DNA of 64,000 nt from Eubacteriales bacterium (GTDB lineage Bacteria > Bacillota > Clostridia > Oscillospirales > SIG627), in NCBI GenBank assembly GCA_045653035.1, contig JAZOLO010000008.1, forward strand, positions 73,067-137,066, written 5' to 3'. The position numbers were made by a program, and so were the translations under genes. Positions 11,964 to 53,811 of the stretch are shown here, one piece after another. Position 1 is the stretch's first letter. Every line of letters starts with the position of its first letter. The notes beneath the pieces are model-generated. The model saw only the letters and a list, made by a program, of their open reading frames with translations. It was not told the origin of the DNA and ran no database searches.

Positions 11964-11979
11964 AGGAAAAATCCTCCTG

Positions 11980-12185
11980 AAAATAAAAATAGTTATGAGG
12001 TGCTTACACTCATAACCAAAGTCACAAATGATAGCACTCCACATTAAATGTGACAGTTGAATACATATTCTGCATTCACCCAACCTGCAAGAATAAAGCT
12101 CTCCTTACAGATTTCGGCGATATCTCCTTTTACCGTCCCTAGCCTTCGGGGTGTCACGGCTACTTATAGGCATCGCACCTCTATC
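11980..12185 (-). promoter_or_regulatory. Lysine riboswitch (L-box) with terminator
   Basis: The minus strand reads GATAGAGGTGCGATG..AGTAGCC..GGTAAAAGGAGATATCGCCGAAATC..GGAGAGC..TGGGTGAATGCAG..CAACTGTCAC..GGAGTGCTATC. This is followed by the terminator GGTTATGAG-N9-CTCATAAC+TATTTTTATTTT. Confidence 0.85.
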
Positions 12186-12240
12186 GTCATTATGTTAACA
12201 AAAATATCACAATTTGTCAAGATTTTTTTATAATTTGTCG

Positions 12241-13897: not shown

Positions 13898-15439
13898 TTA
13901 ATAAGTGTTAAAAATACGGTAAATTGTAAGAACAGATTGCTCTTTGGTATAAAATCCGTTAGGGTCGAATTTTCCGTTCTCTACACCGCCCATCACTCTC
14001 ATTCCCTGTTTGCTCAGAGATGCTGAAACGAAGAATATGCCCTCTTCTCCCCATTGTGCAAATTTGTCACTATCGGTAAATTCAAGCTTTTCTGAGTTAG
14101 GCTCTGATACCCCCATCACCTTTGCGGTGCGGTAAAGCATGGTTGCCGCTTCCTGTCTTGTAATGAAGCCTTCGGGGTCAAATTCATTGTTCCCTTTTCC
14201 GTTTACAATTCCGAGAGCATTGGCAGACAAAATATACGAATCGTGTGTATCGTGGAAAACGTCGTAGTTAAGCTCAAGACCCTTTTCTAAAAGAATATCT
14301 TCAATACTCTTTGAATTTTTTACTGTAAGCATATTTATAACAAGATAACAAAATTCCTGTCTTGTAATCTTATCCTTCATGGTATTATAAAGGGTTTCAA
14401 GTACGAGTCCGTCGTACATTGCAGCTTTGACCTCATTTTCAGCCCATTCAGAAACGCCTGTTCCACCAAGTGTTACGGGACGCTCTAAGATAAGATGCTT
14501 CAGCGAAAGCATTTCGGGGGTTATATCAAAATAGTGAATCAAAGGATTCTCTTCTGTGACTTTTTCTTTGAGTAGTGTCTTGTTATAGCTGTCCCAAGTT
14601 GGGTCCATTATAATCCATCTTCCGTCAACGTAAGCCTCTACCCATGCGTGGTTGGGCTTTAAGGTGACCCCTTTTGTTTCCCTCCAGCTATTAGCAGCGT
14701 CAACACCCAAAGCATATCCCTTTGTTACAAAGGCGGGAATTCCTGCTGAGCGCAGCATTGCTACGGCAAGATTTGAATATCCCTCGCAAACACTTCTTCT
14801 CTCCGTAAGCACCTCTACCGGTGTGAGAGGAGTGAAGGTGGCATAGTTGTTGACATAGTTCATGTCGTAATAAATGTTTTCAGCCACCCATTTATGAATA
14901 GCCTTTGCTTTTTCGTAATCAGTTTTAAGATCCGTGGTTACATTTGTGGTAATCATTTTAACCGCAGATGGTTGCTCGTGATTTATGTGTTCCTTTTCAA
15001 ACACCCAACCAGAAAGCATAGAGGTGTTCTTTTCAAGCACTTCTTCGTCAAAGACAAAAAGATATTTTCCCTCGCTCTTTTCAAGTACTATATCATCACC
15101 AAAAAATATGCTTGTAAATTCCTCTGTCAGCGACTTTCCTAGAAATACGCCAAGCGTTACCCTTTCAGTTTCGATTGCAGTAAGGTCAATTTCGGTCTTG
15201 AATTTCAATTCCGCGGATATAGGAAGAACGTATTTTTTATCAATGGTGATAACGATGTACTGTAATTCTTCGTTATCTACCATACCGCTAACGGTAAGAA
15301 TGTTGTCGCTTACAGAAAAAGCAAGTCCTACAGTATCGTTCGTTACGTTCAAGGAATCCTTGTAAACAGCCGCAGATGCCGTTATAACAAATACTGTAAT
15401 TAGAATTACCGCAAAAAATAATATTTTGATTTTTTTCAT
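13898..15439 (-). CDS. Secreted transglutaminase-like cysteine protease domain protein with C-terminal SLH repeats
   Basis: Signal peptide MKKIKILFFAVILITVFVITASA is present. The transglutaminase core has RRSVCEGYS...NHAWV...DPTW. Three SLH-like repeats (ITRQE..) lie at the C-terminus. The start was moved to the internal Met so it clears the upstream gene. Confidence 0.7.
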   Translation of the reverse strand: MKKIKILFFAVILITVFVITASAAVYKDSLNVTNDTVGLAFSVSDNILTVSGMVDNEELQYIVITIDKKYVLPISAELKFKTEIDLTAIETERVTLGVFLGKSLTEEFTSIFFGDDIVLEKSEGKYLFVFDEEVLEKNTSMLSGWVFEKEHINHEQPSAVKMITTNVTTDLKTDYEKAKAIHKWVAENIYYDMNYVNNYATFTPLTPVEVLTERRSVCEGYSNLAVAMLRSAGIPAFVTKGYALGVDAANSWRETKGVTLKPNHAWVEAYVDGRWIIMDPTWDSYNKTLLKEKVTEENPLIHYFDITPEMLSLKHLILERPVTLGGTGVSEWAENEVKAAMYDGLVLETLYNTMKDKITRQEFCYLVINMLTVKNSKSIEDILLEKGLELNYDVFHDTHDSYILSANALGIVNGKGNNEFDPEGFITRQEAATMLYRTAKVMGVSEPNSEKLEFTDSDKFAQWGEEGIFFVSASLSKQGMRVMGGVENGKFDPNGFYTKEQSVLTIYRIFNTY

Positions 15440-15452
15440 TGTTTCTCCTTTA

Positions 15453-16679
15453 TCAAAACGCCCAGTTCCCGTTTTCAAATATCTTGACGCTTCCGCCTCC
15501 ACGAACATTACCTATGACACAAAGGTCAGCGGTTCCTATCATAAAATCTTCATGGACCATAGAATCGTTTATACCTTTTTTGTGACATTCCTCAAGAGTG
15601 ATTTTATCATAATCTACAAGAGTATTTGTATATCCTGCACCAAGGGCAAGGTGGCAAGATGCATTCTCATCAAAGAGAGTATTATAGAAAGTAAGTCCCG
15701 AATTCTGAATAGGTGAATCGTAAGGGACAAAGGCACATTCTCCAAGATATGCAGCACCCTCGTCCATAGATATAAGCTGTTTTAATAGTTCCTCGTTTTT
15801 CTCCGCATGTACTTCTACCGCTTTACCTTTTTCAAAGCGTATAGAAAAATTCTCTATCATCTCTCCATTATAAGCAAGAGGCTTTGAGGAATATACAATT
15901 CCCTCCGCCTCCCCACGCCTTGGAGAAATGAACACTTCTTCGCTGGGGATATTCGCATTAAAGGGATTGCCTGAGAGAGTTGTTTCGCATCCTCCCATAA
16001 AAGCAGAGCCCTCAATAAGCCCTACTGTGAGGCGTGTACCATTTGATGCTGAATACTCAAGGCTTTCAAGGTTTAGCGAATTGAGGTACTCGCATTTTCT
16101 TCTGACGTTCTCGTTATGCTCCTGCCATGCCTTTATAGGGTCATCGCCGTCGGCACGGGAGGTAAAGAGTATCGCTTCCCAAAGCTTTTCGATTGCCTTT
16201 TTTGAAGAAAGCTCGGGGAACATCTTTTTCGCCCACGCTTTTCCGGGCACTGCTGCAATGCACCATTGATAACGATTTTCCATCTTGTCGCGATAGGGCT
16301 TTATAATCTTATACCTTGCCTGTGAAGCTTTAGCGTACTTTTCTCGGTCAATGCCTTCAAGACCATCTGGGTCCTCTGACAAGAGGTAAATCATACAAGG
16401 AAGAATATCCGCTCTGTGTGAGAGTCTCTCCTCCTCCCATTTTTCAACGGTTGAAAGCACCTCAAGAGTGCGGTATTTCTGATGTATCTTCAAAAGGTGC
16501 TGTACGTCCCATTCAATTTCTACTTTTTTTGCCCCTGCCTTATAACATTCCTCTGTCACCATTATAACAAAGTCGGGCTGGTCAAGGTCTGCACGAATAA
16601 TTACAGTTTGTCCGGGAATAACGTTTACTCCCGATTTAACTATAAGCTTTGCATATTTTTTCAGTTGTGTTTTTTTCAT
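15453..16679 (-). CDS. M29-family aminopeptidase (AmpS/PepS type)
   Basis: The N-terminus LKKYAKLIVKSGVNV..GQ.V.I and overall length are typical of M29. The start was set at MKKTQ. Confidence 0.75.
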   Translation of the reverse strand: MKKTQLKKYAKLIVKSGVNVIPGQTVIIRADLDQPDFVIMVTEECYKAGAKKVEIEWDVQHLLKIHQKYRTLEVLSTVEKWEEERLSHRADILPCMIYLLSEDPDGLEGIDREKYAKASQARYKIIKPYRDKMENRYQWCIAAVPGKAWAKKMFPELSSKKAIEKLWEAILFTSRADGDDPIKAWQEHNENVRRKCEYLNSLNLESLEYSASNGTRLTVGLIEGSAFMGGCETTLSGNPFNANIPSEEVFISPRRGEAEGIVYSSKPLAYNGEMIENFSIRFEKGKAVEVHAEKNEELLKQLISMDEGAAYLGECAFVPYDSPIQNSGLTFYNTLFDENASCHLALGAGYTNTLVDYDKITLEECHKKGINDSMVHEDFMIGTADLCVIGNVRGGGSVKIFENGNWAF

Positions 16680-16792: not shown

Positions 16793-18856
16793 TTATTCTG
16801 CAAGGTCTCCCTTATGCTCTTCGATAATCTTCTGTGCAATACCGGAGGGTACTTCGCCGTAACGCTGAACCTCATAGGTGTAGGTTGCTCTGCCCTGTGT
16901 TATTGCTCTGAGCTGGATAGCATAATTTGACATTTCGGACTTGGGTACTTCAGCCTCTATTATGCTGACACCCTTCTTTGTCTCCGACTGGTCTGTACCA
17001 AGAACCTTTCCGCGTCGTTTTGTAAGGTCGCCTATTACGTCGCCCATAAGATTATCAGGCATTTCAACAACGAGCTTTCCGAGAGGCTCAAGGATAACGG
17101 GGTTTGCGTTCTTAAGTCCCTCCTTGTATGCAAGGTGAGCCGCAAGCTTGAATGCCATTTCAGAGGAGTCAACGTCGTGGTAGGATCCATCGTAAAGGTT
17201 TGCCTTAAGCTTCACAACAGGGAAGCCTGCAAGTACTCCCTTTTCCATAGCTTCAATAAGTCCCTTTTCAACTGCGGGATGGAAGTTCTTGGGCACGGAG
17301 CCACCAAAGATAGACTCGCTGAAGGTAAGTCCCTCCTCCTCTCCGGGGGCAAACTCTATCTTAACGTGACCGTACTGTCCGTGTCCGCCTGACTGCTTCT
17401 TATGCTTACCTTCTGCCTGGACACTCTTCTTTATAGTTTCCCTGTACGCAATTTTTTCTTCAGAAAGCTTAACAGACGTACCGAAGCGTGTCTTCAGCTT
17501 GGAAGAAAGCACGTCAAGGTGCACATCTCCAAGACCTGAAATTATCATCTGCTTGGTTTCGGCATTGTTAACATAGTTAAGGCTCAAATCTTCCTCGAGG
17601 AGCTTGGAAATCCCCTGTGAAATCTTGTCCTCGTCGCCCTTTGCAAGAGGCTCTATCGCCATAGAATAGTAGGGCTTGGGAAATCTTATCTTATGATAAG
17701 TAATATCACCTGATATAGAAAGTGTGTCGTTTGTATTAGCAAATACAAGCTTTGTGGTAAGACCTATATCACCGCAAACCATTCCCTCAACCTCGGTCTG
17801 CTTCTTACCTCTTGCACAGTAAATTCTTGCAATCTTTTCTTCCTGACCGTTACGTGAGTTCTTAAGTACCTGATCCTTTTTAAGAGAGCCGTTCATAACC
17901 TTGAAAAAGCTCATCTTACCAACAAACGGGTCGGCAACTGTCTTGAAAATAAAGAGAGCTGTCTCGCCTTCAGGGTCAATGGCAATTTCCTCCCCGTCCT
18001 CGCTCATCTCGTGAGTTCTGGAAACAGGGCTGGTAAAGGATTTTGATACCTTATGAATAAAGTAGTCAATACCTTCAAGGGTCAGAGCTGAGCCTGAAAA
18101 TACAGGCACGATGCTTCCCATCTTAAGTCCCGCCTGAAGGGCATCCGTTATCTCATCATCTGTAAACGGAATATCGTCAAAATACTTGAGCATGAGCTCG
18201 TCACTTGTCTGTGCAAGTGCTTCAAAGAGCATGGCTCTGTACTCTAAAATCCAGTCTGCATTGGGATCTGGAACAGGAATTTCTTCTGCTGCTCCGTTTG
18301 TATATTTATATGCCTTAACTGCAATTATATCAACATAACCAACAGTCTTGTGATTTTCAAACAAGGGAACGTAAAGAGGACAGATTGTCTGACCGAAAGT
18401 TTCCTTGAGGGTATTAAGTATTGCGGTAAAGTTGATATTATCCTCATCCATACGGTTGACAAAGAAAGCCTTTGCAACGCCTGCATCGGTAGCTCTCTGC
18501 CATGCAAGCTGTGCACCAACCTCCACGCCCGCCTTCGCATCAATCACTATGACTGCATTTCTTACTATACGAAGCACCTGCTCACTTTCAGCACTGAAAT
18601 CAAGATAACCCGGTGTATCTATAAAATTGATTTTCTTGTTATCATAAAATATGGGTGCAACTGACGCTGAAATTGACATTTCACGCTTAATTTCCTCGGG
18701 GTCAAAATCACATACGGTATTTCCTTCGGTGGTTTTTCCAAGTCTATCAGTCTCTTTTGCATAATAAAGCAATGCTTCTACCAAAGATGTCTTTCCGCTG
18801 CCACCATGTCCTAAAAGACATACGTTTCTGATTTGTCTTGATAAAATATTCGCCAT
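16793..18856 (-). CDS. Elongation factor G paralog (EF-G2-like translational GTPase)
   Basis: P-loop GHGGSGKTS, DTPG and NRMD G motifs are present, followed by EF-G domains II-V. Confidence 0.8.
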   Translation of the reverse strand: MANILSRQIRNVCLLGHGGSGKTSLVEALLYYAKETDRLGKTTEGNTVCDFDPEEIKREMSISASVAPIFYDNKKINFIDTPGYLDFSAESEQVLRIVRNAVIVIDAKAGVEVGAQLAWQRATDAGVAKAFFVNRMDEDNINFTAILNTLKETFGQTICPLYVPLFENHKTVGYVDIIAVKAYKYTNGAAEEIPVPDPNADWILEYRAMLFEALAQTSDELMLKYFDDIPFTDDEITDALQAGLKMGSIVPVFSGSALTLEGIDYFIHKVSKSFTSPVSRTHEMSEDGEEIAIDPEGETALFIFKTVADPFVGKMSFFKVMNGSLKKDQVLKNSRNGQEEKIARIYCARGKKQTEVEGMVCGDIGLTTKLVFANTNDTLSISGDITYHKIRFPKPYYSMAIEPLAKGDEDKISQGISKLLEEDLSLNYVNNAETKQMIISGLGDVHLDVLSSKLKTRFGTSVKLSEEKIAYRETIKKSVQAEGKHKKQSGGHGQYGHVKIEFAPGEEEGLTFSESIFGGSVPKNFHPAVEKGLIEAMEKGVLAGFPVVKLKANLYDGSYHDVDSSEMAFKLAAHLAYKEGLKNANPVILEPLGKLVVEMPDNLMGDVIGDLTKRRGKVLGTDQSETKKGVSIIEAEVPKSEMSNYAIQLRAITQGRATYTYEVQRYGEVPSGIAQKIIEEHKGDLAE

Positions 18857-18978: not shown

Positions 18979-19011
18979 CCCCAATTTTGTTTAAAACAAA
19001 CAAAATTGGGG
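18979..19011. terminator. Bidirectional-looking terminator after the ABC operon
   Basis: ccccaattttgttt-N5-aaacaaaattgggg with T runs on both sides. Confidence 0.6.
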
Positions 19012-19064: not shown

Positions 19065-21332
19065 CTATGACATTGATGACATTTTACGCTGTGAAAGTAC
19101 AAGAGAATAGTAAATTCCCTCTTTTTTCATCAGCTCGTCATGAGTACCGAACTCTGCAATTTTGCCCTTGTCAAGTACTATGAGCTTCGTTGCGTTTCGG
19201 AGCGTTGAAAGTCTGTGGGCAATAGCAAAGGTGGTTCGGTCCTTTGTAAGCGAGGATATGGAATCCTGAATAAGACGCTCAGTTTCGGTATCAAGAGCAG
19301 ACGTTGCCTCGTCAAGAATAAGTATCTTGGGGTCACGGAGTATTGCACGGGCGATGGCTATTCGCTGACGTTCACCGCCCGATAAGGTATGTCCCCTCTC
19401 CCCTACCTTAGTGTTATAGCCGTCGGAGAGCTTCATTATAAACTTGTGAGCTCCTGCCATTTTAGCGGCTCTTATTATATCCTCACGGGTGGCTGTCGGG
19501 TCAGCATAAGAAAGGTTGTCGTAAATAGTTCCAGAGAACAGGAAGGTTTCCTGCAAAACTACGCCTATCTGTGAGCGAAGTGAGTGCTGTGAAATTTCCT
19601 TTATATCTATTCCGTCAATAAGTATTTGTCCGTCACGGACGTTGTAAAGACGCATAACGAGATTGATAAGGGTGCTCTTGCCAACACCCGAACGTCCTAC
19701 TATACCAATCATTTCTCCTTTTTTAACGGAGAAGGATATCTTCCGAAGCACGTCCTCGGAATCCTCATAGCCAAAGCTTACGTCACGAAATTCAATGTTT
19801 CCCTCTATTTCATGGTCGATAGCATCAGCTTTGTCCTTTACGTCTATTTCCTCGTCGATGATTTCATATATCTTACGGGTAGATGTTACCATCTGTATAA
19901 ACTGCCTTGGAAGCTTTGTAAGCCAATCAAAGGCATAATATATCTGACCTGTAAAAAAAGTGAACATGGTCATATCACCGAGAGTCATTGTGCCGCCGAG
20001 AATTTTGTTTCCAACGTAAGCAAGTACTATATAGTTACCTATACCTATAAGATAGGTCATATATGGTACAATAAGAGCCCACGTAATTTCGTTTTTCTCG
20101 GATATTTCGGCTACCTTCTTTATTGCCTTATCGTAACGTTTTATTTCTCTTTTTTCCATACCGAAAACTTTAACTACACGAATACCTTGAAAAACATCGT
20201 GAAGTACGGTGTTGGAATTAGATTCCATATACCATTGACGATGATAGAGGCGGTGAGTAAAACGCCACACCTTACGTACAACGTACATGATTATGGGAGC
20301 AGGCACGAGTACCAGAAATGCCAGTTTCCAATCGTAAATGAACATGGCAGTTCCTACAATGAGTATGATGAGCGCATTTTCTGCAAATTGAGGAAGTGCG
20401 TGTACAAAGAAGTTGGAAATTACATTTGTATCTCCTGTAATTCTGTGGATAAGCTCACCTGAAGTTCTTCTTGCAACAGCAGATACCGATAAAAGCTGAA
20501 TTTTTTCAAACAGAGCTGACCTGAGCTTCTTTATCAGCTTGTTATTCACCATCATCAGTATGTTGGTTCTTACAATTTCAAGAAACTTATAAAACGCCTG
20601 TAAAAGGAAGATTGAAAAAGAGATTACCACAAGCCCAAGAAGCAGATTTTCCTTCGGCTCTGTTATGGTTATGTAATCGTCTACCATCTTCTTTTGAAGT
20701 ACGGGATTTATTACCTTTACAAAGCTTAAAAGTCCAAAAAATGCAAATGAAACTATAAGCATCGGTAGCTCTTTTTTTACCATGCTGAAAAGTCTTGTAA
20801 ACATAGACTTTGTATTTGCACAGTGAGAGCACACCGTCATACCTTTTTTGAAGGGACGGTGGCACTTGGGGCAAACTCTCATATCAGGCTCGAATACCAC
20901 ATTGAAATCGGGGTTGTCCTGATTGTCAAGCATGGCATTAAGAGAACGGGAAGCATCAATAACGAGATTGGCAAGTGACATATCCGAGCGGCAAAGCTCT
21001 ACCGTTTTGTTATAATCGGCAGAAACTGCCTCCAAGGCTACGTTTCCTACGTTACGTCTTACCTCAAAGGAAGTATAGTCTGATATATTGAAGACCTCCA
21101 CTATGGTCGGTGATTTATCCTCGTTATCATCAGCTTCCGTTGCACGGAAAATAAAGTCCTGCGTTACGCCTAGAATGCCCAGTCTTGTGCGGTTTTCATT
21201 GTCAAGATTAAAGTTGAACTTGAAAAGCAGTGAGGTTTCGTCAACCTTTTCCCGAAGTCCGTCAAGGAGATGTGTGCGTCTTTTGTTACGCTTGTCTCTG
21301 ATGCTTTTTCTGAGATTTTCTGTTTTACTCAT
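19065..21332 (-). CDS. ABC exporter half-transporter (TMD-NBD) with ~190 aa N-terminal cytoplasmic extension containing a CxxC..CxxC zinc ribbon
   Basis: Walker A GRSGVGKST, signature LSGGERQR and Walker B ILILDEA are present. The N-terminal extension carries CPKCHRPFKKGMTVCSHC. Confidence 0.85.
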   Translation of the reverse strand: MSKTENLRKSIRDKRNKRRTHLLDGLREKVDETSLLFKFNFNLDNENRTRLGILGVTQDFIFRATEADDNEDKSPTIVEVFNISDYTSFEVRRNVGNVALEAVSADYNKTVELCRSDMSLANLVIDASRSLNAMLDNQDNPDFNVVFEPDMRVCPKCHRPFKKGMTVCSHCANTKSMFTRLFSMVKKELPMLIVSFAFFGLLSFVKVINPVLQKKMVDDYITITEPKENLLLGLVVISFSIFLLQAFYKFLEIVRTNILMMVNNKLIKKLRSALFEKIQLLSVSAVARRTSGELIHRITGDTNVISNFFVHALPQFAENALIILIVGTAMFIYDWKLAFLVLVPAPIIMYVVRKVWRFTHRLYHRQWYMESNSNTVLHDVFQGIRVVKVFGMEKREIKRYDKAIKKVAEISEKNEITWALIVPYMTYLIGIGNYIVLAYVGNKILGGTMTLGDMTMFTFFTGQIYYAFDWLTKLPRQFIQMVTSTRKIYEIIDEEIDVKDKADAIDHEIEGNIEFRDVSFGYEDSEDVLRKISFSVKKGEMIGIVGRSGVGKSTLINLVMRLYNVRDGQILIDGIDIKEISQHSLRSQIGVVLQETFLFSGTIYDNLSYADPTATREDIIRAAKMAGAHKFIMKLSDGYNTKVGERGHTLSGGERQRIAIARAILRDPKILILDEATSALDTETERLIQDSISSLTKDRTTFAIAHRLSTLRNATKLIVLDKGKIAEFGTHDELMKKEGIYYSLVLSQRKMSSMS

Positions 21333-21853
21333 AAATACAGCTCAATCCTTCTGAAGCTTGCCTTGTCAAGAGATGACAAGCTTTCTATTTCATATCTGTT
21401 AGCGTCTTCATCTATTACTATTGCACGGTCGTCACCTATGTGTATAATACTCTTGAAGGTATCCTTCAAGGACATTACCCTCATTCCGTTTGGCGTTTCC
21501 ACAGTCCACGTAGAGTTGCCAAAGCGTTCTTCAACATTCAGTATTTTAAGTATTTTGGCTGCAAAATATTTCTTTTCAAGCTCGTGCCTAATAATATCCC
21601 TTGCCTTTTCGTCAAAGTCCTCAAGAGTTCGTATTATTCCTATTTCATTCTGCTCTTCATCGCTAACCGAAATAAATTCAAAAGGAAGGTCGTGAGGAAA
21701 AACACGGCTGAGGAACACTCTTTTGAATTCTTCCGCACCATCAAGCTTTGCTGCAACAAATCCGTTTTCGGTTGCCTTAAATTCAGCGTTTTGGGGATTT
21801 ATATAATATAGCTCGGCACTTTGCTTTATGCCTATTCTTTCATTGTTTTTCAT
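21329..21853 (-). CDS. DUF1854-like small cytoplasmic protein, translationally coupled between two ABC genes
   Basis: It has a 4 nt ATGA overlap with the downstream ABC gene and a 2 nt gap to the upstream one. The DUF1854 assignment is from memory of this family's ABC association. Confidence 0.55.
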   Translation of the reverse strand: MKNNERIGIKQSAELYYINPQNAEFKATENGFVAAKLDGAEEFKRVFLSRVFPHDLPFEFISVSDEEQNEIGIIRTLEDFDEKARDIIRHELEKKYFAAKILKILNVEERFGNSTWTVETPNGMRVMSLKDTFKSIIHIGDDRAIVIDEDANRYEIESLSSLDKASFRRIELYL

Positions 21854-21855
21854 AA

Positions 21856-24225
21856 TTATTCCTCCACTCCGATAAGCTTAAGTGCATCGAGCTGCATCTT
21901 ATAAAGGGTATAATAATCGCCCTTCTTTTCAATGAGCTCACGATGTGTGCCCGTTTCGGTCATCCTTCCGTCTTCTATAACTATAAGCCTGTTCGCATCC
22001 TTAAGAGTTGACAAACGGTGAGCTATAATAATCGTAGTTTTTCCTCTTGTAATATCCGTTATAGCCTTTTGTATCTTCAACTCCGTTGCAGTATCCATTG
22101 CCGCTGTTGCTTCGTCAAGAATTAGTATCTTGGGATTTTTGAGGATTGCACGGGCTATTGATATACGCTGACACTCACCGCCCGAAAGTCCTTTGTTTCC
22201 AAAGCCTATCTGGGTGTTGTAACCGTCAGGATATTTTACAATAAAGTCGTGTGCTCCTGCCGCCTTTGCCGCCTCAACCACCTCTTCGTCGGTTGCATCG
22301 GGTGCGGCATATCTTATGTTATCTGCAATAGAACCGCGGAAAAGATAGGTTTCCTGTGATACGATTGCAATATTATCACGGATAAAGCTCATGGGAAGGT
22401 CTTTTACGTTGTTGCCGTCAACAAGCACCGCACCTTCGGTAACGTCGTAAAGTCTCATAATAAGATTTACAATAGTTGACTTACCTGCACCAGTGTGACC
22501 GACAATACCGATTGTTTCTCCCGCCTCAACCTTAAAGCTTACTTTTTCAATTACACGGCGGTTTTTAACGTATTCAAAGGAAACATCCTTAAATTCTACT
22601 GTACCATCAAGCTTTTCGGGAATGATAGGGTCGGGTCTGTCCATTACGTCGGGCACTGTATCCATTATCTCAAAAAGGCGGTGTGCGGCGTTCATACATT
22701 CAGAAAGCTGCTGACCGAATCGATTAAAGAAATCAAGCGGTGCATAAGCCATGGCAAGCATGGAAATATAAGTTACAAGAGTACCATAGGTGAATATTTC
22801 GTTTCCGCTGATAGCCCCCTTTGCAACCATGTATCCGCCGAAAGCCCATGCGGAATATGTGCCAACCTCAAGAATAAGAGTTACCGGATATATAAACCAG
22901 TTGGTCTTTACAGTTCCGTCATAAACAGAGTCCGCATAAGCGTAGCTTCTTTTATCAAACTTCTTTTGTTCAAGGTCTTCATGGGAAAATGCCTTTACAA
23001 CTCGGTTACCTGTAAGTACGTCAGCAACAAAGGAGTTAAAAATTCTGGATCTGGAATAATTACGGGCATGGATTTTTCTGGCAAATCGGTAAAGTGAGCG
23101 TCTCACTGCTACGTAAATAGGAATGGGAAGCATTACAATAAGAGACACCTGCCAGTTCATGACAAAGAGTAATATAACTATTGCTACAAACTGAACGATG
23201 TTGGTTACGAAATAAGGAAGTCCGTCAACAAAGAACCAATAAAGAGAACGGGAGTCCTGATTTATCTGAGTCATAAGACCGCCCGTCTGTCTCGATGAGA
23301 AGAATGAAAGGGACAGTCTTTGGATAGATTCAAAAATCGTCTTTTTAAGGTCGTAAACGACCCTTGCCGAAATTTTTGCGGTAACAATAGAATGTACCAT
23401 CATAAATACAGTTGAGAGAAGTTTAGTTCCTGCAATGATTATTATAGCCTTTGCTATCTGTCCGTAAAAGGAGCCCTTAAGGTTAAGCACTTCGTCGATA
23501 AAGAAAGCACCGCTTACGTACGGCGAGAGAAGTCCGAGGAGTGACGAAAGCACAACCATTATAAGAACTATAACCGTATACCATTTATATTTCAGAAAAA
23601 ACGGTAAAAGCTTTGATATAAGCCGTTTGGTTTCTCCGCTTTTAATACCTTTTAAAAAGCTGTTTTTTCCGTCACCGTGCGGAGGTCTTGGAGAAGGAGT
23701 TCCCGATATGCCGTCTCCTTTACGCATGTCAGGCCCGCCCTCTATTTCTCTTTTTCCAAAAATAATTTCTTCCTGTGTTACGGTGTCGTCGGTTATTCCG
23801 TGGCAAAGAGTATATATGCCGTCCTTAACGGTGTTGGAAAAATAAAGAACAAGTGTATCAAGTCCACTGTTTTTATCCCTTGCTACTACTCTTCCGCCTG
23901 ACAAAAACTCCTCTAAATGGAAATTCTCATAGTCTTCAAGTGAATAAGTTCTGAAGCTTCGTTCGACAATATCAGTCTTTGTTTTTTTCATATCAAAGAC
24001 ATTATGCGTCTTACGGGGAAAGATACCGCCAAGTGTTTCAAGAACAACAAGCTCAGTATCGGTAAGAACTGCAAAGCAGTCACAAAACTCCATTTCAATA
24101 CCCATATCGGACTTACAAAAAAGTCGTATGTTGGCTTCGGGTATACCTTTTTCCAAAAGCTTATTGATAATATGAAAAGGCAAATTCATACTATCTTTTT
24201 GCCTTTCATTCATTCTTTCCATCAT
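21856..24225 (-). CDS. ABC exporter half-transporter (TMD-NBD) with ~235 aa N-terminal cytoplasmic extension
   Basis: Walker A GHTGAGKST, signature LSGGECQR and Walker B ILILDEA are present. The start was set at ATGATGGAAAGA (AGAGG RBS). The longer ORF-track start would abut the divergent gpmI. Confidence 0.8.
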   Translation of the reverse strand: MMERMNERQKDSMNLPFHIINKLLEKGIPEANIRLFCKSDMGIEMEFCDCFAVLTDTELVVLETLGGIFPRKTHNVFDMKKTKTDIVERSFRTYSLEDYENFHLEEFLSGGRVVARDKNSGLDTLVLYFSNTVKDGIYTLCHGITDDTVTQEEIIFGKREIEGGPDMRKGDGISGTPSPRPPHGDGKNSFLKGIKSGETKRLISKLLPFFLKYKWYTVIVLIMVVLSSLLGLLSPYVSGAFFIDEVLNLKGSFYGQIAKAIIIIAGTKLLSTVFMMVHSIVTAKISARVVYDLKKTIFESIQRLSLSFFSSRQTGGLMTQINQDSRSLYWFFVDGLPYFVTNIVQFVAIVILLFVMNWQVSLIVMLPIPIYVAVRRSLYRFARKIHARNYSRSRIFNSFVADVLTGNRVVKAFSHEDLEQKKFDKRSYAYADSVYDGTVKTNWFIYPVTLILEVGTYSAWAFGGYMVAKGAISGNEIFTYGTLVTYISMLAMAYAPLDFFNRFGQQLSECMNAAHRLFEIMDTVPDVMDRPDPIIPEKLDGTVEFKDVSFEYVKNRRVIEKVSFKVEAGETIGIVGHTGAGKSTIVNLIMRLYDVTEGAVLVDGNNVKDLPMSFIRDNIAIVSQETYLFRGSIADNIRYAAPDATDEEVVEAAKAAGAHDFIVKYPDGYNTQIGFGNKGLSGGECQRISIARAILKNPKILILDEATAAMDTATELKIQKAITDITRGKTTIIIAHRLSTLKDANRLIVIEDGRMTETGTHRELIEKKGDYYTLYKMQLDALKLIGVEE

Positions 24226-24398
24226 GCAATATACCTCTTTTTTGCGGAACATTCTCTTTAACTGTAATATATCACATGAAAAACCGCGAGTCAATAGAAA
24301 TACACCAAATATCCGCATATTTTTTTCTTTCCAAAAGCTTGTCTTTTTTTGTAATATATGGTAAACTAAAATATATGCTATAAACAAGGAGTAAAGCC

Positions 24399-27789: not shown

Positions 27790-28992
27790 TTATTTGCAGT
27801 AAAAGGTTCTCTTTAAAATTGCAAAAAACGTGTCAAGGACCCCTGCCTTCGGGATATCCTCCCCTACCCTTACATCCGTTTCAAAAAGAGTGGTATCTCC
27901 TATATTATATTTGATTTTTCCTATTACGTCACCCTTTTTAAGAGGTGCTTTCAAATCCTTTTCTATATCTATCGTCTCTTCAATTTTGTTTTCTTCTCCC
28001 TTTTTAACAAGGTATGGTGTTATGATAGTATCAAGCTTTACCGTGTCCTTTTTACCGCCCCATACTCGTACAGGCTCTAGTTTTTCAGTCTTTGGATAGT
28101 ATACCGAATAATTAGAAAAGCCATAGTCGAGAAGCCCCTTTGCGGCAGAAAAGCGCTCAGCACTTGTGGGTGCACCCAGAACTACTGCAATAAGCTTTAC
28201 TCCGTTTCTTTCAGCCGTTGCAGAAAGGCAAAATCTTGCCTTTGAGGTAGATCCTGTTTTAAGCCCTGTAGCACCGTCATAAAAGCGAATTAGCTTATTG
28301 GTGTTGGAAAGTCCGAATTTTCCGTCGCGTATGGAGTCCATCCAAATAGTAGTATATTCAAAAATGCGAGGGTGCGAAATTAGTGCTCTTGACATAATTG
28401 CAACGTCTCTTGCTGAAGAATAGTGCATTTCCTTATCGTCAAGACCCGTACAGTTTACAAATTCCGTTGAGGTCATTTGAAGCTCTTTGCATTTTTGGTT
28501 CATTAGCTTTACAAACTCACCCTCACTTCCTGCAAGGTGCTCTGCCAGTGCTACCGCACCGTCGTTACAGCTTGAAACAGATACTGCTTTGAGCATATCG
28601 TGTACGCTCATTTTCTCTCCTGCCTCCATAAATGCCTGACTTCCGCCCATTGAAGCGGCGTTTTCGCTGACAGTAACTATATCGTCAAGTTTAATACGCT
28701 CATCGTCAAGAGCTTCCATTACAAGAAGCATGGTCATTACTTTCGTAACCGAGGCAATGGGAAGCTTTTCATCGGGATTATGTTCAAAGAGTACCTCTCC
28801 GCTTTCTGCCTCCATAAGTATAGCGCCTGCTGCACAGTCGGCAAGGGCATCCACTGATATTGCATCATTTACACCAAGTGTATAATCGTCAGCTGAAAAA
28901 ACAGGTCTTTCGTCCTCAGCTAAGTCAGCTAAAGCTGTTAGGGCAGGCAAAAAGCACAAAAGACATAAAAAAAGTGCAATAAATCTTTTCAT
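27790..28992 (-). CDS. D-alanyl-D-alanine carboxypeptidase (S11, PBP5 type)
   Basis: SVTK, SCND and KTGST motifs plus a signal peptide are present. The start was set at the second ATG, which has an AAGGAG RBS. Confidence 0.8.
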   Translation of the reverse strand: MKRFIALFLCLLCFLPALTALADLAEDERPVFSADDYTLGVNDAISVDALADCAAGAILMEAESGEVLFEHNPDEKLPIASVTKVMTMLLVMEALDDERIKLDDIVTVSENAASMGGSQAFMEAGEKMSVHDMLKAVSVSSCNDGAVALAEHLAGSEGEFVKLMNQKCKELQMTSTEFVNCTGLDDKEMHYSSARDVAIMSRALISHPRIFEYTTIWMDSIRDGKFGLSNTNKLIRFYDGATGLKTGSTSKARFCLSATAERNGVKLIAVVLGAPTSAERFSAAKGLLDYGFSNYSVYYPKTEKLEPVRVWGGKKDTVKLDTIITPYLVKKGEENKIEETIDIEKDLKAPLKKGDVIGKIKYNIGDTTLFETDVRVGEDIPKAGVLDTFFAILKRTFYCK

Positions 28993-29043
28993 AAAAGTTC
29001 TCCTTCGTTTTTTATACATTTTATGCTGGAAGGAAGAGTTTAT

Positions 29044-29407: not shown

Positions 29408-30475
29408 TTACTTGTTTCCGTTAAGCATAGCAATTATGTCTTCAAGGTCATCAATTTTCTTATCTGTGATAATGTCATCGCTTATTGTGTCAGCAGTTTC
29501 CTTGGGCTCTTCCTTCTTCTTGTCACTGTCAAAGCCTGTTGCAATAACTGTAATCTTCATTTCATCTTCAAGAGACTCATCGAAGGTAGCACCCCAAATA
29601 AGAGTTGCATCGGGACTTGCCTCTGCCTTAATCATGTTAGCAGCATAGTCAATCTCGTCAAGTCCGATATCAGGTGATGCGGTAACGTTGAAGATAATAC
29701 CCTTAGCACCTGCAATTGTTGTTTCAAGAAGAGGACTGGATATAGCCATACGAGCTGCAAGCTCTGCCTTATCCTTACCCTTTCCGTTACCAACGCCCAT
29801 GTGTGCAAGACCTGCATCTGCCATAACTGTTGTTACGTCTGCGAAGTCAAGGTTTACTATACCGTCAACGTTAATAAGCTCAGAGATACTCTGCACACCG
29901 CGACAAAGAACACTATCTGCAATTTCAAATGCATTGAGAAGTGTGATTCTTGTCTCAGAAACCATCTTGAGTCTTTCGTTAGGAATAACGAGGAGTGCAT
30001 CAACGTACTCAGCAAGTTCCTTGATACCAACCTCTGCCTTGTCCATACGTGACTGACCTTCAAATGCGAAGGGCTTTGTTACTACACCTACTGTAAGTAT
30101 TCCGCGGCTCTTTGCTGCTTTTGCAACAATAGGAGATGCACCTGTACCTGTACCGCCTCCCATACCTGTGGTTACAAATACCATATCTGCATCTTCAATA
30201 GCCTTTGTAATCTCATCAAGGGATTCTTCTGCAGCCTTACGTCCGATATCGGGGTTAGAGCCTGCACCTCGTCCTCTTGTGAGCTTTTCGCCGATTATAA
30301 TCTTTGTACTGGCATTTGATTTCTTGAGAGTCTGCTGATCAGTATTGATAGCTATGTAATCAATACCTGCAACGCCCTGCTTAATCATTCTGTTTACTGT
30401 ATTGTTTCCGCCGCCTCCGACGCCAACAACTTTAATTTTTACGAGAGTTTCTTCTACTTCAAAAGGCATTTCCAT
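29408..30475 (-). CDS. ftsZ: Cell division GTPase FtsZ
   Basis: GVGGGGNN and GGGTGTG tubulin signature motifs are present. Confidence 0.95.
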
Positions 30476-30578
30476 GTCCTCCTATTTTTTTAGATATCAT
30501 TCTTAGTTTACATTGTAATATATTTTTTTGACTTTTGCAACACATTTTTGAAAAAAACTTAAATTTTATACAAATTTA

Positions 30579-31379
30579 CTAATTAGCCACATTTCCAGTA
30601 AACTTAACAAGTGCCTTAGAGGGGTCGGAAATATCAATTGTTCCCATGGAGTCCTTCCATATCTCATTATCCATCATTTCACTGAGCAATTTCACCTTTG
30701 CATTAGCTTTTTCAAATGTACCGAATGTTATTTCAAAACGGTTTTCATAGGTGAGCTTTACGTTGAATTTGTCGGTTGTATCAATATCCGTCATGTGCGA
30801 TATCATAGAGTGCTCTTCAAGGGCTTTTGTTATTTCGCACAAAATTTCAAGTCTTTCGGGCTTGTCGAATACTATGTTTTCTCCGCAGATACAGCGCTTT
30901 ACCTCAGCCGTCAGAAGCTTTGTTCTCTTTATTCCGTCATAAAACGGGTCGGTAACAATCTCGAGTACACGTCCTTCAGATGAAAGAATAAAGATGTCCG
31001 TCCCAAGTTCTACGTAAAGAGTACCCTTATTTTCCGTTATATTTATTTCGAGAATCGAAGGCAGTTTCTTCTTTATATTTACTTCCTTGATATATGGAAA
31101 CTCATAAAGAAGTGCCTCCTCTGCCCTCCCCGACTTATAGGTTATAAGATTTGTGTCCTTTGGGATGTTTAAAAACTTCGACACGTCCTCTGCATTGTAT
31201 GGAACGGCAGCAGAAATTCCATTGACACTTATGGTCTTTATGTTAAAAAGATTTTCAAAAGCCATAATCAAAAAGAACAGCACTGCTATTACGGTAAGAA
31301 ATATTGCGAAGTATTTACCTGCTTTATTCCTTCTTTCTGCTTTTCTTTTTATTTGTTCCAGCTTGACCTTGTCATTCAT
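30579..31379 (-). CDS. ftsQ: FtsQ/DivIB-type division protein (single TM plus POTRA)
   Basis: It lies between murG and ftsZ. An N-terminal TM segment is followed by a POTRA-like IKTISVNG. Confidence 0.65.
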   Translation of the reverse strand: MNDKVKLEQIKRKAERRNKAGKYFAIFLTVIAVLFFLIMAFENLFNIKTISVNGISAAVPYNAEDVSKFLNIPKDTNLITYKSGRAEEALLYEFPYIKEVNIKKKLPSILEINITENKGTLYVELGTDIFILSSEGRVLEIVTDPFYDGIKRTKLLTAEVKRCICGENIVFDKPERLEILCEITKALEEHSMISHMTDIDTTDKFNVKLTYENRFEITFGTFEKANAKVKLLSEMMDNEIWKDSMGTIDISDPSKALVKFTGNVAN

Positions 31380-32500
31380 TTTTTAGCCTCCAGCGTTCCC
31401 TTTACGACTCCGTATATTCTGTCATCGGTATCGGGAATAGCAAGCTTCTTCATACACTCTGACATTTTTTTAAGTCTTTCTTTGTCAAAAATTAGTTTTT
31501 CTATTTCTTTTTCAAGTACCTCGGGAGTAAGATTTTTTTCCTCTATTACTACAGCGCCTCCAGCTTCTGCCACAACCATCGCATTTTTGTACTGATGATT
31601 ATTTGTAACGTTAGGCGACGGAATAAGGATAGCGGGCTTGCCAAGGGTTGCAAGCTCTGCCAGAGTTATTGCACCCGCCCTTGAAATTACAAGGTCGGCT
31701 GCCGCCATCTTTGACGACATATCATAAATATACTCCGTAAGCTCGGTATCCTTTTTTTCGTGAAGTGAGAATTTCTTTATCTCTTCTTCTCTCACCTTCC
31801 ACTCGTATGAGCCTACTCCGTGAGTGTGGTGAAGCCTTCCTTCAAAGGCTCCTTTTTTTATTATTTCAAAAACGTTATTGTTTATCGTTCGAGCCCCCAG
31901 ACTTCCGCCGTAAGAAAGAAGATATGGCTTCTCCCCTATTCCGAGCTTTCTTCTTTCCTCTTCCTTTGAAGCACGCATCATATCAGGGTTTACAGGATTT
32001 CCTACAAGAACAATCTTATTTTTATCCCCTTCAAGCTCTGCTCTTGATTCCTCAAAGCTTATCATAACCTTATCAACTATTTTGGAAAGCATCCTTGTGG
32101 TAACTCCAACAACGGCATTCTGCTCATGTATTGCCGTAGGAATTCCCTTAGACGCCGCGGCACGAAGTACGGGCCAGCTTACGTATCCTCCCGTTCCTAT
32201 TACTATGTCGGGTGCAAAGCTTTTAATGATTTTCGCAGCCACAAGTGGTGAAGTTATCGCACGGTACAAAACTCCTACATTCTGAACCATAGCTTTAACG
32301 CTCTTTTTTCTTATAAAGCCCTTTACATCAACGTGGTATATGGGATATCCTGCTCTTGTAACAAGCTTATTCTCCATACCCGTCGGTGTACCAACAAATG
32401 CTATTTCCGCATCGGGATGCTCTTTTTTTATTATGGAGGCAATAGCGAGGGCAGGATTTATATGTCCTGCCGTTCCGCCTCCCGAAAGTAATACTCTCAT
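31376..32500 (-). CDS. murG: UDP-N-acetylglucosamine--LPS/lipid I GlcNAc transferase MurG
   Basis: GGGTAGHINPALA is present, together with dcw cluster context. Confidence 0.9.
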   Translation of the reverse strand: MRVLLSGGGTAGHINPALAIASIIKKEHPDAEIAFVGTPTGMENKLVTRAGYPIYHVDVKGFIRKKSVKAMVQNVGVLYRAITSPLVAAKIIKSFAPDIVIGTGGYVSWPVLRAAASKGIPTAIHEQNAVVGVTTRMLSKIVDKVMISFEESRAELEGDKNKIVLVGNPVNPDMMRASKEEERRKLGIGEKPYLLSYGGSLGARTINNNVFEIIKKGAFEGRLHHTHGVGSYEWKVREEEIKKFSLHEKKDTELTEYIYDMSSKMAAADLVISRAGAITLAELATLGKPAILIPSPNVTNNHQYKNAMVVAEAGGAVVIEEKNLTPEVLEKEIEKLIFDKERLKKMSECMKKLAIPDTDDRIYGVVKGTLEAKK

Positions 32501-32506
32501 AAAATA

Positions 32507-33682: not shown

Positions 33683-33700
33683 AAGAAAGACCTCCTGCTT

Positions 33701-34681: not shown

Positions 34682-34704
34682 TGTTATCTCCGATTATTTT
34701 AAAT

Positions 34705-36054: not shown

Positions 36055-36063
36055 TATTACTCC

Positions 36064-37533: not shown

Positions 37534-37536
37534 CTC

Positions 37537-53805: not shown

Positions 53806-53811
53806 ATGTTA

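What the first reader, a model, noticed from the sequence alone, without database searches (positions are those of the whole stretch)
19065..24225. ABC - DUF1854-like - ABC operon whose half-transporters both carry large N-terminal cytoplasmic domains
The three genes are translationally coupled (2 nt gap, then a 4 nt ATGA overlap). Both exporters have canonical TMD-NBD cores. Each is preceded by about 190-235 aa of soluble sequence with a similar beta-rich pattern (..DCFAVLTDTELVVLE.. / ..LGVTQDFIFRATE..). One also carries a CPKC..CSHC zinc ribbon just before TM1. The 174 aa protein between them has no enzymatic motif I can see. I recall DUF1854 being linked to ABC transporters and, in some annotation, to cyanophycin metabolism, but I cannot verify that here. 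Substrate and role of the extra domains are unknown.
Basis: partly seen in the sequence, partly recalled or inferred. Interest (0 to 1): 0.5.

Follow-up and report, generated by a model that had tools for sequence, protein, structure and literature searches.

The report
PH-domain ABC exporter pair with DUF1854
This is a real, conserved three-gene operon of gut Clostridia that encodes a two-part ABC export pump plus a small DUF1854 helper protein; it is a duplicated version, not linked to cyanophycin genes, of a transporter family that is already catalogued but whose cargo is unknown.

Summary
On the minus strand, ABC1 (24225..21856, 789 aa), a DUF1854 protein (21853..21329, 174 aa) and ABC3 (21332..19065, 755 aa) are joined by a 2-nt gap and an ATGA overlap. 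A sigma-70-like promoter and an intrinsic terminator frame the unit.

The small protein is a true DUF1854 (PF08909, E 2.5e-31). The two N-terminal extensions are homologous to each other (hhalign 98.6%). They are also homologous to the N-domain of single-gene DUF1854-linked ABC transporters in other phyla. The ABC1 N-domain models as a PH-like fold. The zinc ribbon is ancestral to both halves and was lost from ABC1 only in this clade.

ABC-DUF1854-ABC is conserved in about 35 Clostridia loci, 32 of them with all three genes on the contig. The two paralogues form mirror-image trees, which indicates an old duplication and an obligate heterodimer.

The best NCBIfam hits are the "cyanophycin metabolism-associated" ABC and DUF1854 models, but all three proteins score far below the cut-offs. 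I saw no cyanophycin synthetase gene near any of the 42 loci or in the window.

My reading is a cphA-unlinked, heterodimeric variant of the known DUF1854-coupled exporters. The PH-like domains, zinc ribbon and DUF1854 probably act as a cytoplasmic cargo-recruiting or gating platform. The cargo is unknown. Interest is moderate.

The parts
24266..24294 (-). Sigma-70-like promoter TTGACT-17-TATATT with a TG extension. It lies about 40 nt upstream of the ABC1 start.
   Evidence: 10 of 12 matches, TG before the -10 hexamer; sequence.
21856..24225 (-). ABC1, the upstream half-transporter (789 aa): N-terminal PH-like domain, G/P-rich linker, TMD, NBD.
   Evidence: RBS AAGAGG precedes the start. ABC_membrane covers 218-489 and ABC_tran 560-708. 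Walker A, Q-loop, LSGGE, Walker B-DE and H-loop are all canonical.
23776..24183 (-). ABC1 N-terminal PH-like domain (residues about 15-150): a short helix, seven beta-strands and a C-terminal helix.
   Evidence: In the AF2 model the 10-residue blocks from residue 21 to 150 average 80-98 pLDDT, most above 90. Nearly all top Foldseek hits are PH domains, with probability 0.9-1.0 but weak E-values of 0.01-0.2.
23653..23748 (-). Gly/Pro-rich, predicted-disordered linker in ABC1. It occupies the position of the zinc ribbon found in ABC1 orthologues of other clades.
   Evidence: Residues 164-191 have pLDDT below 50. Translation. The zinc ribbon is absent in window plus 9/9 close relatives and present in 23/23 other ABC1 orthologues (alignment).
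22759..23574 (-). ABC1 transmembrane domain (type IV exporter fold).
   Evidence: PF00664, E 3.4e-33.
22102..22548 (-). ABC1 nucleotide-binding domain.
   Evidence: PF00005, E 7.1e-33; motifs.
21329..21853 (-). DUF1854 protein (174 aa), cytosolic, with two beta-rich subdomains each capped by a helix. Conserved motifs include RxFP, E-G-I-I and D-x-[DN]-[AS]-N-R-[YF]-E-I, and the conservation runs through to the C-terminal residue.
   Evidence: PF08909, E 2.5e-31. Alignments. AF2 mean pLDDT 85. No TM segment.
19065..21332 (-). ABC3, the downstream half-transporter (755 aa): basic N-tail, PH-like domain, zinc ribbon, TMD, NBD.
   Evidence: NF052233 aligns over residues 32-751, so it includes the N-domain.
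20928..21230 (-). ABC3 N-terminal PH-like domain (residues about 35-135). It is homologous to the ABC1 N-domain, and R115 is invariant.
   Evidence: hhalign N1 vs N3 98.6%, E 1.4e-15, and N3 vs single-ABC N-domains 99.3%. Alignment A3. bPH_3 is hit by 2 of 34 members, best E 0.0049. This domain was not modelled directly.
20820..20873 (-). CxxC-x11-CxxC zinc ribbon (CPKCHRPFKKGMTVCSHC) immediately before the elbow helix and TM1 of ABC3.
   Evidence: DZR and Zn_ribbon families are hit in 32 of 34 family members. The motif is present in 33/33 downstream ABCs.
19938..20759 (-). ABC3 transmembrane domain.
   Evidence: PF00664, E 6.8e-38.
19299..19748 (-). ABC3 nucleotide-binding domain.
   Evidence: PF00005, E 1.9e-36; motifs.
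18979..19011 (-). Intrinsic-terminator-like hairpin (15-bp stem plus T-run), 54 nt after the ABC3 stop. It closes the operon.

Best explanation
The operon encodes one machine. It consists of a heterodimeric ABCB-type (type IV fold) exporter built from two ancient paralogues, ABC1 and ABC3, plus a cytosolic DUF1854 subunit. It is the Clostridial, duplicated form of the DUF1854-coupled ABC exporters that occur as ABC-DUF1854 gene pairs in other phyla. In Betaproteobacteria those pairs are genetically tied to cphA/cphA'; this operon is not linked to cphA.

SHOWN
- The operon structure.
- Two complete half-transporters with consensus ATP-site motifs in both halves.
- N-domains that are homologous to each other.
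- A PH-like fold for the ABC1 N-domain.
- An ancestral zinc ribbon just before TM1, lost from ABC1 in this clade.
- A soluble DUF1854 protein with two subdomains.
- Strict three-gene conservation with mirror-image phylogenies.
- No cphA in any neighbourhood examined.

INFERRED
- ABC1 and ABC3 pair as an obligate heterodimer.
- DUF1854 binds them in the cytoplasm. Its two unequal subdomains would suit the two unequal PH-like domains or NBDs.
- Together with the zinc ribbon(s) at the membrane-cytoplasm interface, these parts form a platform that recruits or gates a cytoplasm-made hydrophilic cargo, which both ATP sites then drive outward. C39/CLD domains play this role for peptide exporters, and the Wzt C-terminal domain does so for O-antigen.
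- The cargo in Clostridia is unknown. An oligomeric or polymeric envelope or secreted product is the most economical guess.
For: - Operon: coupling, RBS, promoter and terminator.
- Family: PF08909 is hit above its cut-off. The best NCBIfam hits for all three proteins are NF052233 and NF052234, and the NF052233 alignment covers the ABC3 N-domain.
- N-domain homology: N1 vs N3 98.6%, N3 vs single-ABC N-domains 99.3%, N1 vs single-ABC N-domains 97.4%.
- PH-like fold: model blocks from residue 21 to 150 average 80-98 pLDDT, with seven strands followed by a helix. Top Foldseek hits are TBC1D23, GRK2, Tiam1, USP37, Sin1 and bacterial PH domains. bPH_3 gives weak hits.
- Zinc ribbon: present in 33/33 downstream ABCs, 23/33 upstream ABCs and 6/7 single ABCs.
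- Both NBDs carry canonical motifs in all loci.
- About 35 Clostridia loci carry ABC-DUF1854-ABC, and 7 loci from Armatimonadota, Planctomycetota and Lentisphaeria carry ABC-DUF1854.
- In the NJ tree the upstream and downstream ABCs form two mirror clades, and the single ABCs are sister to the downstream clade.
- DUF1854 as a transporter subunit: cofitness with the ABC and cphA genes in two Betaproteobacteria, and ABC-DUF1854 fusions in some genomes (Price et al., 10.1101/072470).
- The core is closest to the solved exporters ABCB1/ABCB4, TM287/288, Sav1866, BmrCD and TmrAB.
Against: - No physical interaction was tested, because no multimer prediction was available.
- The PH-like call rests on one AF2 model built from an 18-sequence alignment. 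Its Foldseek E-values are only 0.01-0.2.
- The ABC3 N-domain was not modelled.
- The DUF1854 model has no significant PDB match (best E 0.027, TM at most 0.23), so its role is argued from context only.
- Direction of transport is assumed. A few type IV-fold ABC proteins are importers (established knowledge: YbtPQ, IrtAB, Rv1819c).
- No cargo-synthesis gene is conserved next to the operon, so cargo recruitment cannot be told apart from pure regulation.
Confidence: 0.55

Rival explanations
1. It does the same job as the proteobacterial "cyanophycin metabolism-associated" transporter. It would export a CphA/CphA'-made amino-acid polymer, with the synthetase gene encoded elsewhere in the genome.
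For: - NF052233 and NF052234 are the top NCBIfam hits for all three proteins.
- The N-domain and DUF1854 are shared with that family.
Against: - Scores are far below the equivalog cut-offs: 488 and 525 against 880, and 71 against 150.
- No ORF of cphA size or domain make-up was found within 10 kb in any of the 42 loci. All ORFs of 550 aa or more were listed, and 10 ambiguous ones were scanned against Pfam.
- No such ORF was found in the 64-kb window either. Its only Mur-ligase proteins are the 449-aa and 489-aa ligases inside the dcw cluster.
- The seven non-Clostridial ABC-DUF1854 loci also lack cphA. The linkage is therefore specific to some lineages, not a property of the whole family.
Confidence: 0.15
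2. It is a general drug or lipid efflux pump of the BmrCD, LmrCD or TM287/288 type. The PH-like domains and DUF1854 would be purely regulatory (autoinhibitory or signal-sensing) parts and would not bind cargo.
For: - The core is most similar to multidrug/lipid ABCB exporters and to bacterial heterodimeric exporters.
- No cargo-synthesis genes are linked.
- PH-like domains often bind lipids or small ligands (established knowledge).
Against: - Both ATP sites are consensus, unlike the degenerate-site heterodimers BmrCD and TM287/288.
- DUF1854 and the N-domain are strictly retained with the transporter across several phyla. In Betaproteobacteria the system is cofit with polymer synthetases, not with drug stress.
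- No adjacent regulator gene is conserved.
Confidence: 0.2
3. It is a peptide or bacteriocin secretion system of the PCAT or type I secretion kind. The N-domain would play the role of a C39 peptidase or C39-like domain.
For: An N-terminal cytoplasmic domain of about 150 aa on an ABCB-type half-transporter is the PCAT/HlyB layout. NHLP/bacteriocin ABC models appear among the weaker NCBIfam hits.
Against: - No Peptidase_C39 hit was found, and the N-domain fold is PH-like, not papain-like.
- No conserved small precursor ORF, immunity gene or membrane-fusion gene lies next to the operon.
- The NCBIfam alignments to bacteriocin exporters start only at the TMD.
Confidence: 0.05
4. It is an importer with the exporter fold, like YbtPQ, IrtAB or Rv1819c, and its cytoplasmic domains process the imported substrate.
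For: Precedent from established knowledge only: IrtA carries an N-terminal cytoplasmic siderophore-interaction domain.
Against: - There is no enzymatic motif or cofactor-binding family in the N-domain or in DUF1854.
- No metal- or siderophore-related genes are nearby.
Confidence: 0.05

Closest known systems
Cyanophycin metabolism-associated ABC transporter plus DUF1854 protein (NCBIfam NF052233 / NF052234), the Acidovorax/Cupriavidus system of Price et al.
   Same: Both have an ABCB-type half-transporter with a cytoplasmic N-domain of about 170 aa. The NF052233 profile aligns to ABC3 from residue 32. Both have a DUF1854 gene immediately downstream, and both use the signature LSGGE.
   Different: Here there are two diverged paralogous ABC genes flanking DUF1854, not one. 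Scores are well below the equivalog cut-offs. No cphA/cphA' is nearby. The ABC1 N-domain is too diverged to align to the NF052233 profile and has lost its zinc ribbon.
Single-gene ABC-DUF1854 pairs of Armatimonadota, Planctomycetota and Lentisphaeria (loci L036-L042)
   Same: They share the same N-domain (hhalign 99.3% to N3), the zinc ribbon, the DUF1854 partner and the tight gene coupling. They are also not linked to cphA.
   Different: They are presumed homodimers. The Clostridial system duplicated the ABC gene, and the downstream copy stays closer to the single-gene form.
Bacterial heterodimeric ABC exporters TM287/288, BmrCD (YheI/YheH), TmrAB and LmrCD
   Same: They share the type IV exporter core, the two-gene heterodimer layout, and 300-350 bit similarity to solved structures.
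   Different: Those lack any N-terminal PH-like or zinc-ribbon domain and any DUF1854 partner. They typically have one degenerate ATP site, whereas both sites here are consensus.
PCAT and HlyB-type exporters (N-terminal C39 peptidase or C39-like domain)
   Same: The functional layout is the same: a cytoplasmic N-terminal accessory domain on an ABCB half-transporter, which in those systems recruits the cargo (established knowledge).
   Different: The fold differs (PH-like, not papain-like), there is no C39 match, and there are no precursor or accessory genes.
Bacterial PH-like domains (Pfam bPH_1-6, e.g. PF14470 bPH_3; PDB 3b77)
   Same: The topology of seven strands plus a C-terminal helix is shared. 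There are weak sequence hits to bPH_3 in 2 of 34 members, and 3b77 is among the Foldseek hits.
   Different: There is no hit at Pfam thresholds. This domain is so far seen only fused to these ABC transporters and is followed by a zinc ribbon.

Membership tests
DUF1854 (Pfam PF08909) | Score above the Pfam gathering threshold across the whole domain. | tested here: met
   108.7 bits against 26.8, with residues 43-171 aligned to profile positions 1-128 of 130.
NF052234 cyanophycin metabolism-associated DUF1854 protein (equivalog) | Score at or above the curated cut-off of 150 bits. | tested here: not met
   71.1 bits.
NF052233 cyanophycin metabolism-associated ABC transporter (equivalog) | Score at or above the curated cut-off of 880 bits. 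| tested here: not met
   ABC1 scores 487.6 bits, aligned from residue 201 only. ABC3 scores 524.7 bits, aligned from residue 32.
NF052233 / NF052234 cyanophycin-associated system | Genomic association with cphA/cphA' or other cyanophycin metabolism genes. | tested here: not met
   No cphA-like ORF was found within 10 kb in the 42 loci or in the 64-kb window. Whether cphA lies elsewhere in the genome could not be tested.
Type IV (ABCB-like) ABC exporter half-transporter | ABC_membrane (six-TM exporter TMD) followed by ABC_tran, with Walker A, Q-loop, signature, Walker B-DE and H-loop. | tested here: met
   PF00664 plus PF00005 in both proteins. Motifs are intact in both. Solved relatives.
Degenerate-site heterodimeric exporters (TM287/288, BmrCD class) | One ATP site with a non-consensus Walker B glutamate, H-loop or signature. 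| tested here: not met
   Both halves carry ILILDE, AHR and LSGGE in the window and in the loci checked.
PH-like fold (structural superfamily) | A seven-stranded beta-sandwich closed by a C-terminal alpha-helix. | tested here: met
   The ABC1 N-domain model has strands at 35-41, 47-54, 58-70, 82-95, 99-106, 110-117 and 123-130, followed by a helix at 131-145. PH domains dominate the Foldseek list, but E-values are only 0.01-0.2. For ABC3 the fold is inferred from homology.
Pfam bacterial PH families (bPH_1-6) | Score above the gathering threshold for one of the models. | tested here: not met
   Only 2 of 34 members touch bPH_3, at E of 0.0049 or weaker. The window proteins do not hit it at all.
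Zinc ribbon | Two CxxC knuckles with conserved spacing; metal binding. | tested here: inconclusive
   ABC3 has CPKC-x11-CSHC, and the four Cys are at least 90% conserved. Hits to DZR and Zn_ribbon are weak. Metal binding cannot be tested here. The motif is absent from ABC1 of this window.
PCAT / C39-domain peptide exporters | An N-terminal Peptidase_C39 domain with a catalytic Cys/His, and a cognate leader-peptide gene. | tested here: not met
   No C39 hit. The fold is PH-like. No conserved small ORF is nearby.
Anti-phage defence systems (PADLOC) | A match to a specific defence protein model beyond a generic ATPase core. | tested here: not met
   Only generic ABC-ATPase overlaps were found. 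DUF1854 and the N-domains gave nothing.

The most novel reading that the evidence does not exclude
The PH-like domains, zinc ribbon and DUF1854 form a previously unrecognised cytoplasmic cargo-selection module for ABC-driven export of a non-ribosomally made amino-acid (cyanophycin-like) or other hydrophilic polymer. Gut Clostridia would use the duplicated version to put such a polymer into their envelope or surroundings. [quoted passage not shown]
Probability: 0.12. Interest if true: 0.7.

Novelty: new variant of a known kind. Interest (0 to 1): 0.4.

Why it matters
DUF1854-coupled ABC transporters are widespread, yet only one paper in the searched library mentions them. No solved structure matches either accessory part.

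This operon shows three things:
- The family exists independently of cyanophycin synthetase genes, so the NCBIfam product name should not be propagated to it.
- Its hallmark N-domain is a PH-like fold followed by a zinc ribbon.
- In Clostridia, many of them gut or rumen MAGs, it became an obligate-looking heterodimer. That makes it a natural asymmetric system for working out what DUF1854 and the PH-like domains do.

If the cargo turns out to be a polymer, this would be a new export route for Gram-positive anaerobes. If not, it is simply one more accessory-domain ABC exporter.

Tried and rejected
- BLASTP between the two N-domains and DUF1854 found nothing. Only profile-profile comparison revealed the N1-N3 homology.
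- DUF1854 as a third copy of the N-domain is rejected at the sequence level: hhalign gives under 1% for the whole protein and for each half.
- An internal duplication within DUF1854 is only weakly suggested (29% probability).
- Word-indexed homologue searches with the isolated N-domains returned only 2 and 1 hits. The exhaustive search found just 20 representatives for N1.
- Foldseek of the DUF1854 model against the PDB gave no significant match. The best partial resemblances were to small OB-like barrels and tandem HIN domains, at TM of about 0.2.
- Sequence searches of the PDB with DUF1854 and with the N-domain profile gave nothing beyond zinc-ribbon look-alikes.
- An exact look-up of the window's DUF1854 protein in the contig index found no record.
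- Conserved-neighbour analysis found no extra component. EF-G, the M29 peptidase and gpmI are syntenic only in close relatives.
- No riboswitch or other Rfam element lies in or before the operon.
- The defence-system reading is rejected.
- Literature searches for PH-like domains on ABC exporters, or for newer work on DUF1854, found nothing.
Full report
**1. What is in the sequence**

On the minus strand of 19065-24225 there are three co-directional ORFs:
- ABC1: 24225..21856, 789 aa.
- A 174-aa protein: 21853..21329.
- ABC3: 21332..19065, 755 aa.

The ABC1 stop is followed by two bases and then the ATG of the small gene. The small gene's stop overlaps the ABC3 start as ATGA.

The mechanical ORF for ABC1 runs up to a TTG at 24387. 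The ATG at 24225 is the likely start, because it has an AAGAGG ribosome-binding site and it coincides with the start of the orthologues.

A TTGACT-17-TATATT promoter-like site with a TG extension lies at 24294-24266. A 15-bp hairpin with a T-run lies at 19011-18979, right after ABC3. A separate promoter-like site precedes the next gene, an EF-G paralogue. The unit is therefore a discrete three-gene operon. No Rfam element lies in or before it.

**2. Family assignments**

Both large proteins carry ABC_membrane plus ABC_tran. The small protein hits DUF1854 (PF08909) at 108.7 bits, E 2.5e-31.

In NCBIfam the best model for both ABC proteins is NF052233, "cyanophycin metabolism-associated ABC transporter". 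The best model for the small protein is NF052234, "cyanophycin metabolism-associated DUF1854 family protein". All three scores are far below the curated cut-offs: 487.6 and 524.7 against 880, and 71.1 against 150.

The ABC3 alignment to NF052233 starts at residue 32, so the N-terminal extension is already part of that curated model. The ABC1 alignment starts only at residue 201.

The transporter cores are most similar to the solved ABCB-type exporters ABCB1/ABCB4, TM287/288, Sav1866, BmrCD and TmrAB. None of those alignments reaches into the N-domain.

**3. The N-terminal domains**

Neither N-region has a hydrophobic segment; the first TM lies at about 216 in ABC1 and about 190 in ABC3. DUF1854 has no hydrophobic segment either. 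All three accessory parts are therefore cytoplasmic, given the known topology of type IV exporters (established knowledge).

BLASTP finds no similarity between the two N-domains. Profiles built from 33 orthologues of each align at 98.6% probability (E 1.4e-15). Both also align to the N-domain of single-gene relatives from other phyla, at 99.3% and 97.4%.

An AF2 model of the ABC1 N-domain was built from an 18-sequence alignment. Its 10-residue blocks from residue 21 to 150 average 80-98 pLDDT, most above 90. The model shows a short helix, seven beta-strands and a C-terminal helix. Its Foldseek hits against the PDB are almost all PH domains: TBC1D23, GRK2, Tiam1, USP37, SSRP1, Sin1, NF1 and the bacterial PH protein 3b77. 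Probabilities are 0.9-1.0, but E-values are modest at 0.01-0.2, and TM normalised to the target is about 0.5-0.63.

At the sequence level only 2 of 34 family members touch Pfam bPH_3. I therefore call the fold PH-like but do not file the domain in any Pfam PH family.

**4. The zinc ribbon**

ABC3 carries CPKCHRPFKKGMTVCSHC at 20873-20820, directly before the elbow helix and TM1. The four cysteines are at least 90% conserved. Zinc-ribbon families are hit weakly by 32 of 34 members.

The motif is present in 33/33 downstream ABCs, 6/7 single ABCs and 23/33 upstream ABCs. The ten upstream ABCs that lack it are exactly the window and its nine closest relatives. In those, a Gly/Pro-rich linker takes its place. 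The model predicts that linker to be disordered (pLDDT below 50 for residues 164-191).

**5. DUF1854**

The 39-sequence alignment gives a model with mean pLDDT 85. It has two beta-rich subdomains, each ending in a helix. Conservation is strong across phyla and runs to the very last residue. Conserved motifs include RxFP, E-G-I-I, W-x-V-x-T and D-x-[DN]-[AS]-N-R-[YF]-E-I.

There is no significant PDB match by fold (best E 0.027, TM at most 0.23) or by sequence. DUF1854 is not detectably related to the N-domains. A hint of internal duplication is weak (29%).

**6. Distribution and evolution**

A scan of one genome per GTDB species returned 42 loci.

- Loci L001-L035 are Clostridia, labelled as Oscillospiraceae, Acutalibacteraceae, Ruminococcus, Lachnospiraceae or unclassified Eubacteriales; many are gut, rectal or faecal MAGs. 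All 35 have the ABC-DUF1854-ABC layout where the contig allows: 32 have all three genes on the contig and 3 are cut by a contig end.
- Loci L036-L042 come from Armatimonadota, Planctomycetota and Lentisphaeria and carry ABC-DUF1854 only.
- Every ABC protein in the set has the N-extension of about 150-220 aa.

A neighbour-joining tree of the cores puts all upstream copies in one clade and all downstream copies in another. The two clades have mirror-image topology, and the single-gene forms are sister to the downstream clade. This points to one old duplication followed by co-evolution, as expected for an obligate heterodimer.

Both nucleotide-binding domains keep consensus Walker A, Q-loop, LSGGE, Walker B-DE and H-loop motifs. 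This is unlike the degenerate-site heterodimers.

**7. Neighbourhood**

In the window the neighbouring genes are:
- On one side: gpmI, an RluA-family synthase, a sugar kinase, a DacA-type carboxypeptidase and the dcw cluster.
- On the other side: an EF-G paralogue, an M29 aminopeptidase, a transglutaminase-like protein, PRK13663, a riboswitch-controlled antiporter-family gene and trpB.

These neighbours are shared only with the closest relatives. No gene family other than the three operon genes is conserved across the loci.

I found no cyanophycin synthetase. No ORF of the right size or domain content occurs within 10 kb in any locus or in the window. All ORFs of 550 aa or more were listed, and ten ambiguous ones were scanned against Pfam.

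One subclade has a VanY-type carboxypeptidase directly upstream. I treat that as a note, not as evidence.

**8. What is known**

The only paper in the searched library that mentions DUF1854 is Price et al. (bioRxiv 10.1101/072470). In Acidovorax and Cupriavidus, DUF1854 is cofit with an adjacent ABC transporter and with cphA/cphA'. Some genomes fuse DUF1854 to the transporter. [quoted passage not shown]

A later cyanophycin paper states that no cyanophycin export process is known (PMC9974463).

I found nothing on the N-domain fold or on the Clostridial arrangement.

**9. Interpretation**

The identity of the system is well supported: a heterodimeric, cphA-unlinked variant of the DUF1854-coupled ABC exporters.

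The mechanism is inferred. I propose that DUF1854 and the two PH-like domains, with the zinc ribbon at the membrane interface, form a cytoplasmic platform that recruits or gates a hydrophilic, cytoplasm-made cargo. This is analogous to the accessory domains of PCAT/HlyB or Wzt.

The rival readings are listed with their evidence in the rival-explanations section: cyanophycin-type polymer export with cphA encoded elsewhere, a regulated drug or lipid pump, peptide secretion, and import. None is excluded, except that peptide secretion and a defence role have no support.

**10. Verdict**

The finding is real and correctly read. It is not a new kind of system, because Pfam, NCBIfam and one fitness study already link DUF1854 to such transporters. 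It is an undescribed variant. Its accessory domains have no solved structure and no function shown by direct experiment. Interest is moderate.

Noticed in passing
window 12024-12191 (-), upstream of ORF 10458-12083 (-): A lysine riboswitch (RF00168, 108 bits) precedes a gene of the NhaC/Tet(35)-like Na+/H+ antiporter family. The mechanically called TTG start at 12083 overlaps the aptamer, so the real start must lie further downstream.
   Followed up: partly
window 60124-60214 (-), upstream of 58638-60044 (-): A glycine riboswitch aptamer (RF00504, 63.8 bits) lies upstream of a gene of the sodium:alanine symporter family.
   Followed up: partly
window 16793-18856 (-): An EF-G family protein (687 aa, NF009381 at 834 bits) lies immediately downstream of the operon. 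It has its own promoter-like site at 18934-18906. It is syntenic with the operon only in the closest relatives, so it is probably unrelated.
   Followed up: partly
window 29408-39876 (-): A dcw-type cell-wall and division cluster sits a few kb upstream of the operon. It comprises a PBP with a PASTA domain, two Mur ligases, MraY, FtsW, MurG, FtsQ and FtsZ, and is followed by a DacA-type D-Ala-D-Ala carboxypeptidase at 27790-29019.
   Followed up: partly
L014, L018, L020-L023, L025, L026 (e.g. L026:5989-7674): In one Clostridial subclade, a protein of about 560 aa lies directly upstream of the first ABC gene, abutting or overlapping it on the same strand. It has a VanY D-Ala-D-Ala carboxypeptidase domain and a Cu_amine_oxidN1 domain. 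This may be a cell-wall link or may be only synteny.
   Followed up: partly
window 13898-15508 (-): A 536-aa protein has a signal-peptide-like N-terminus and a transglutaminase-related core. Its C-terminal region weakly resembles cell-wall-anchoring repeats. It diverges fast, at about 50% identity in relatives whose neighbouring genes are about 75-90% identical.
   Followed up: no
window 53721-53886 (-): A tRNA-Tyr(GTA) and tRNA-Thr(TGT) pair.
   Followed up: no
L037:7126-9795: The single ABC of a Brocadiia MAG is 889 aa. It has about 300 aa before the core, and its zinc ribbon is at position 137. This is either an extra inserted segment or a mis-called start.
   Followed up: no
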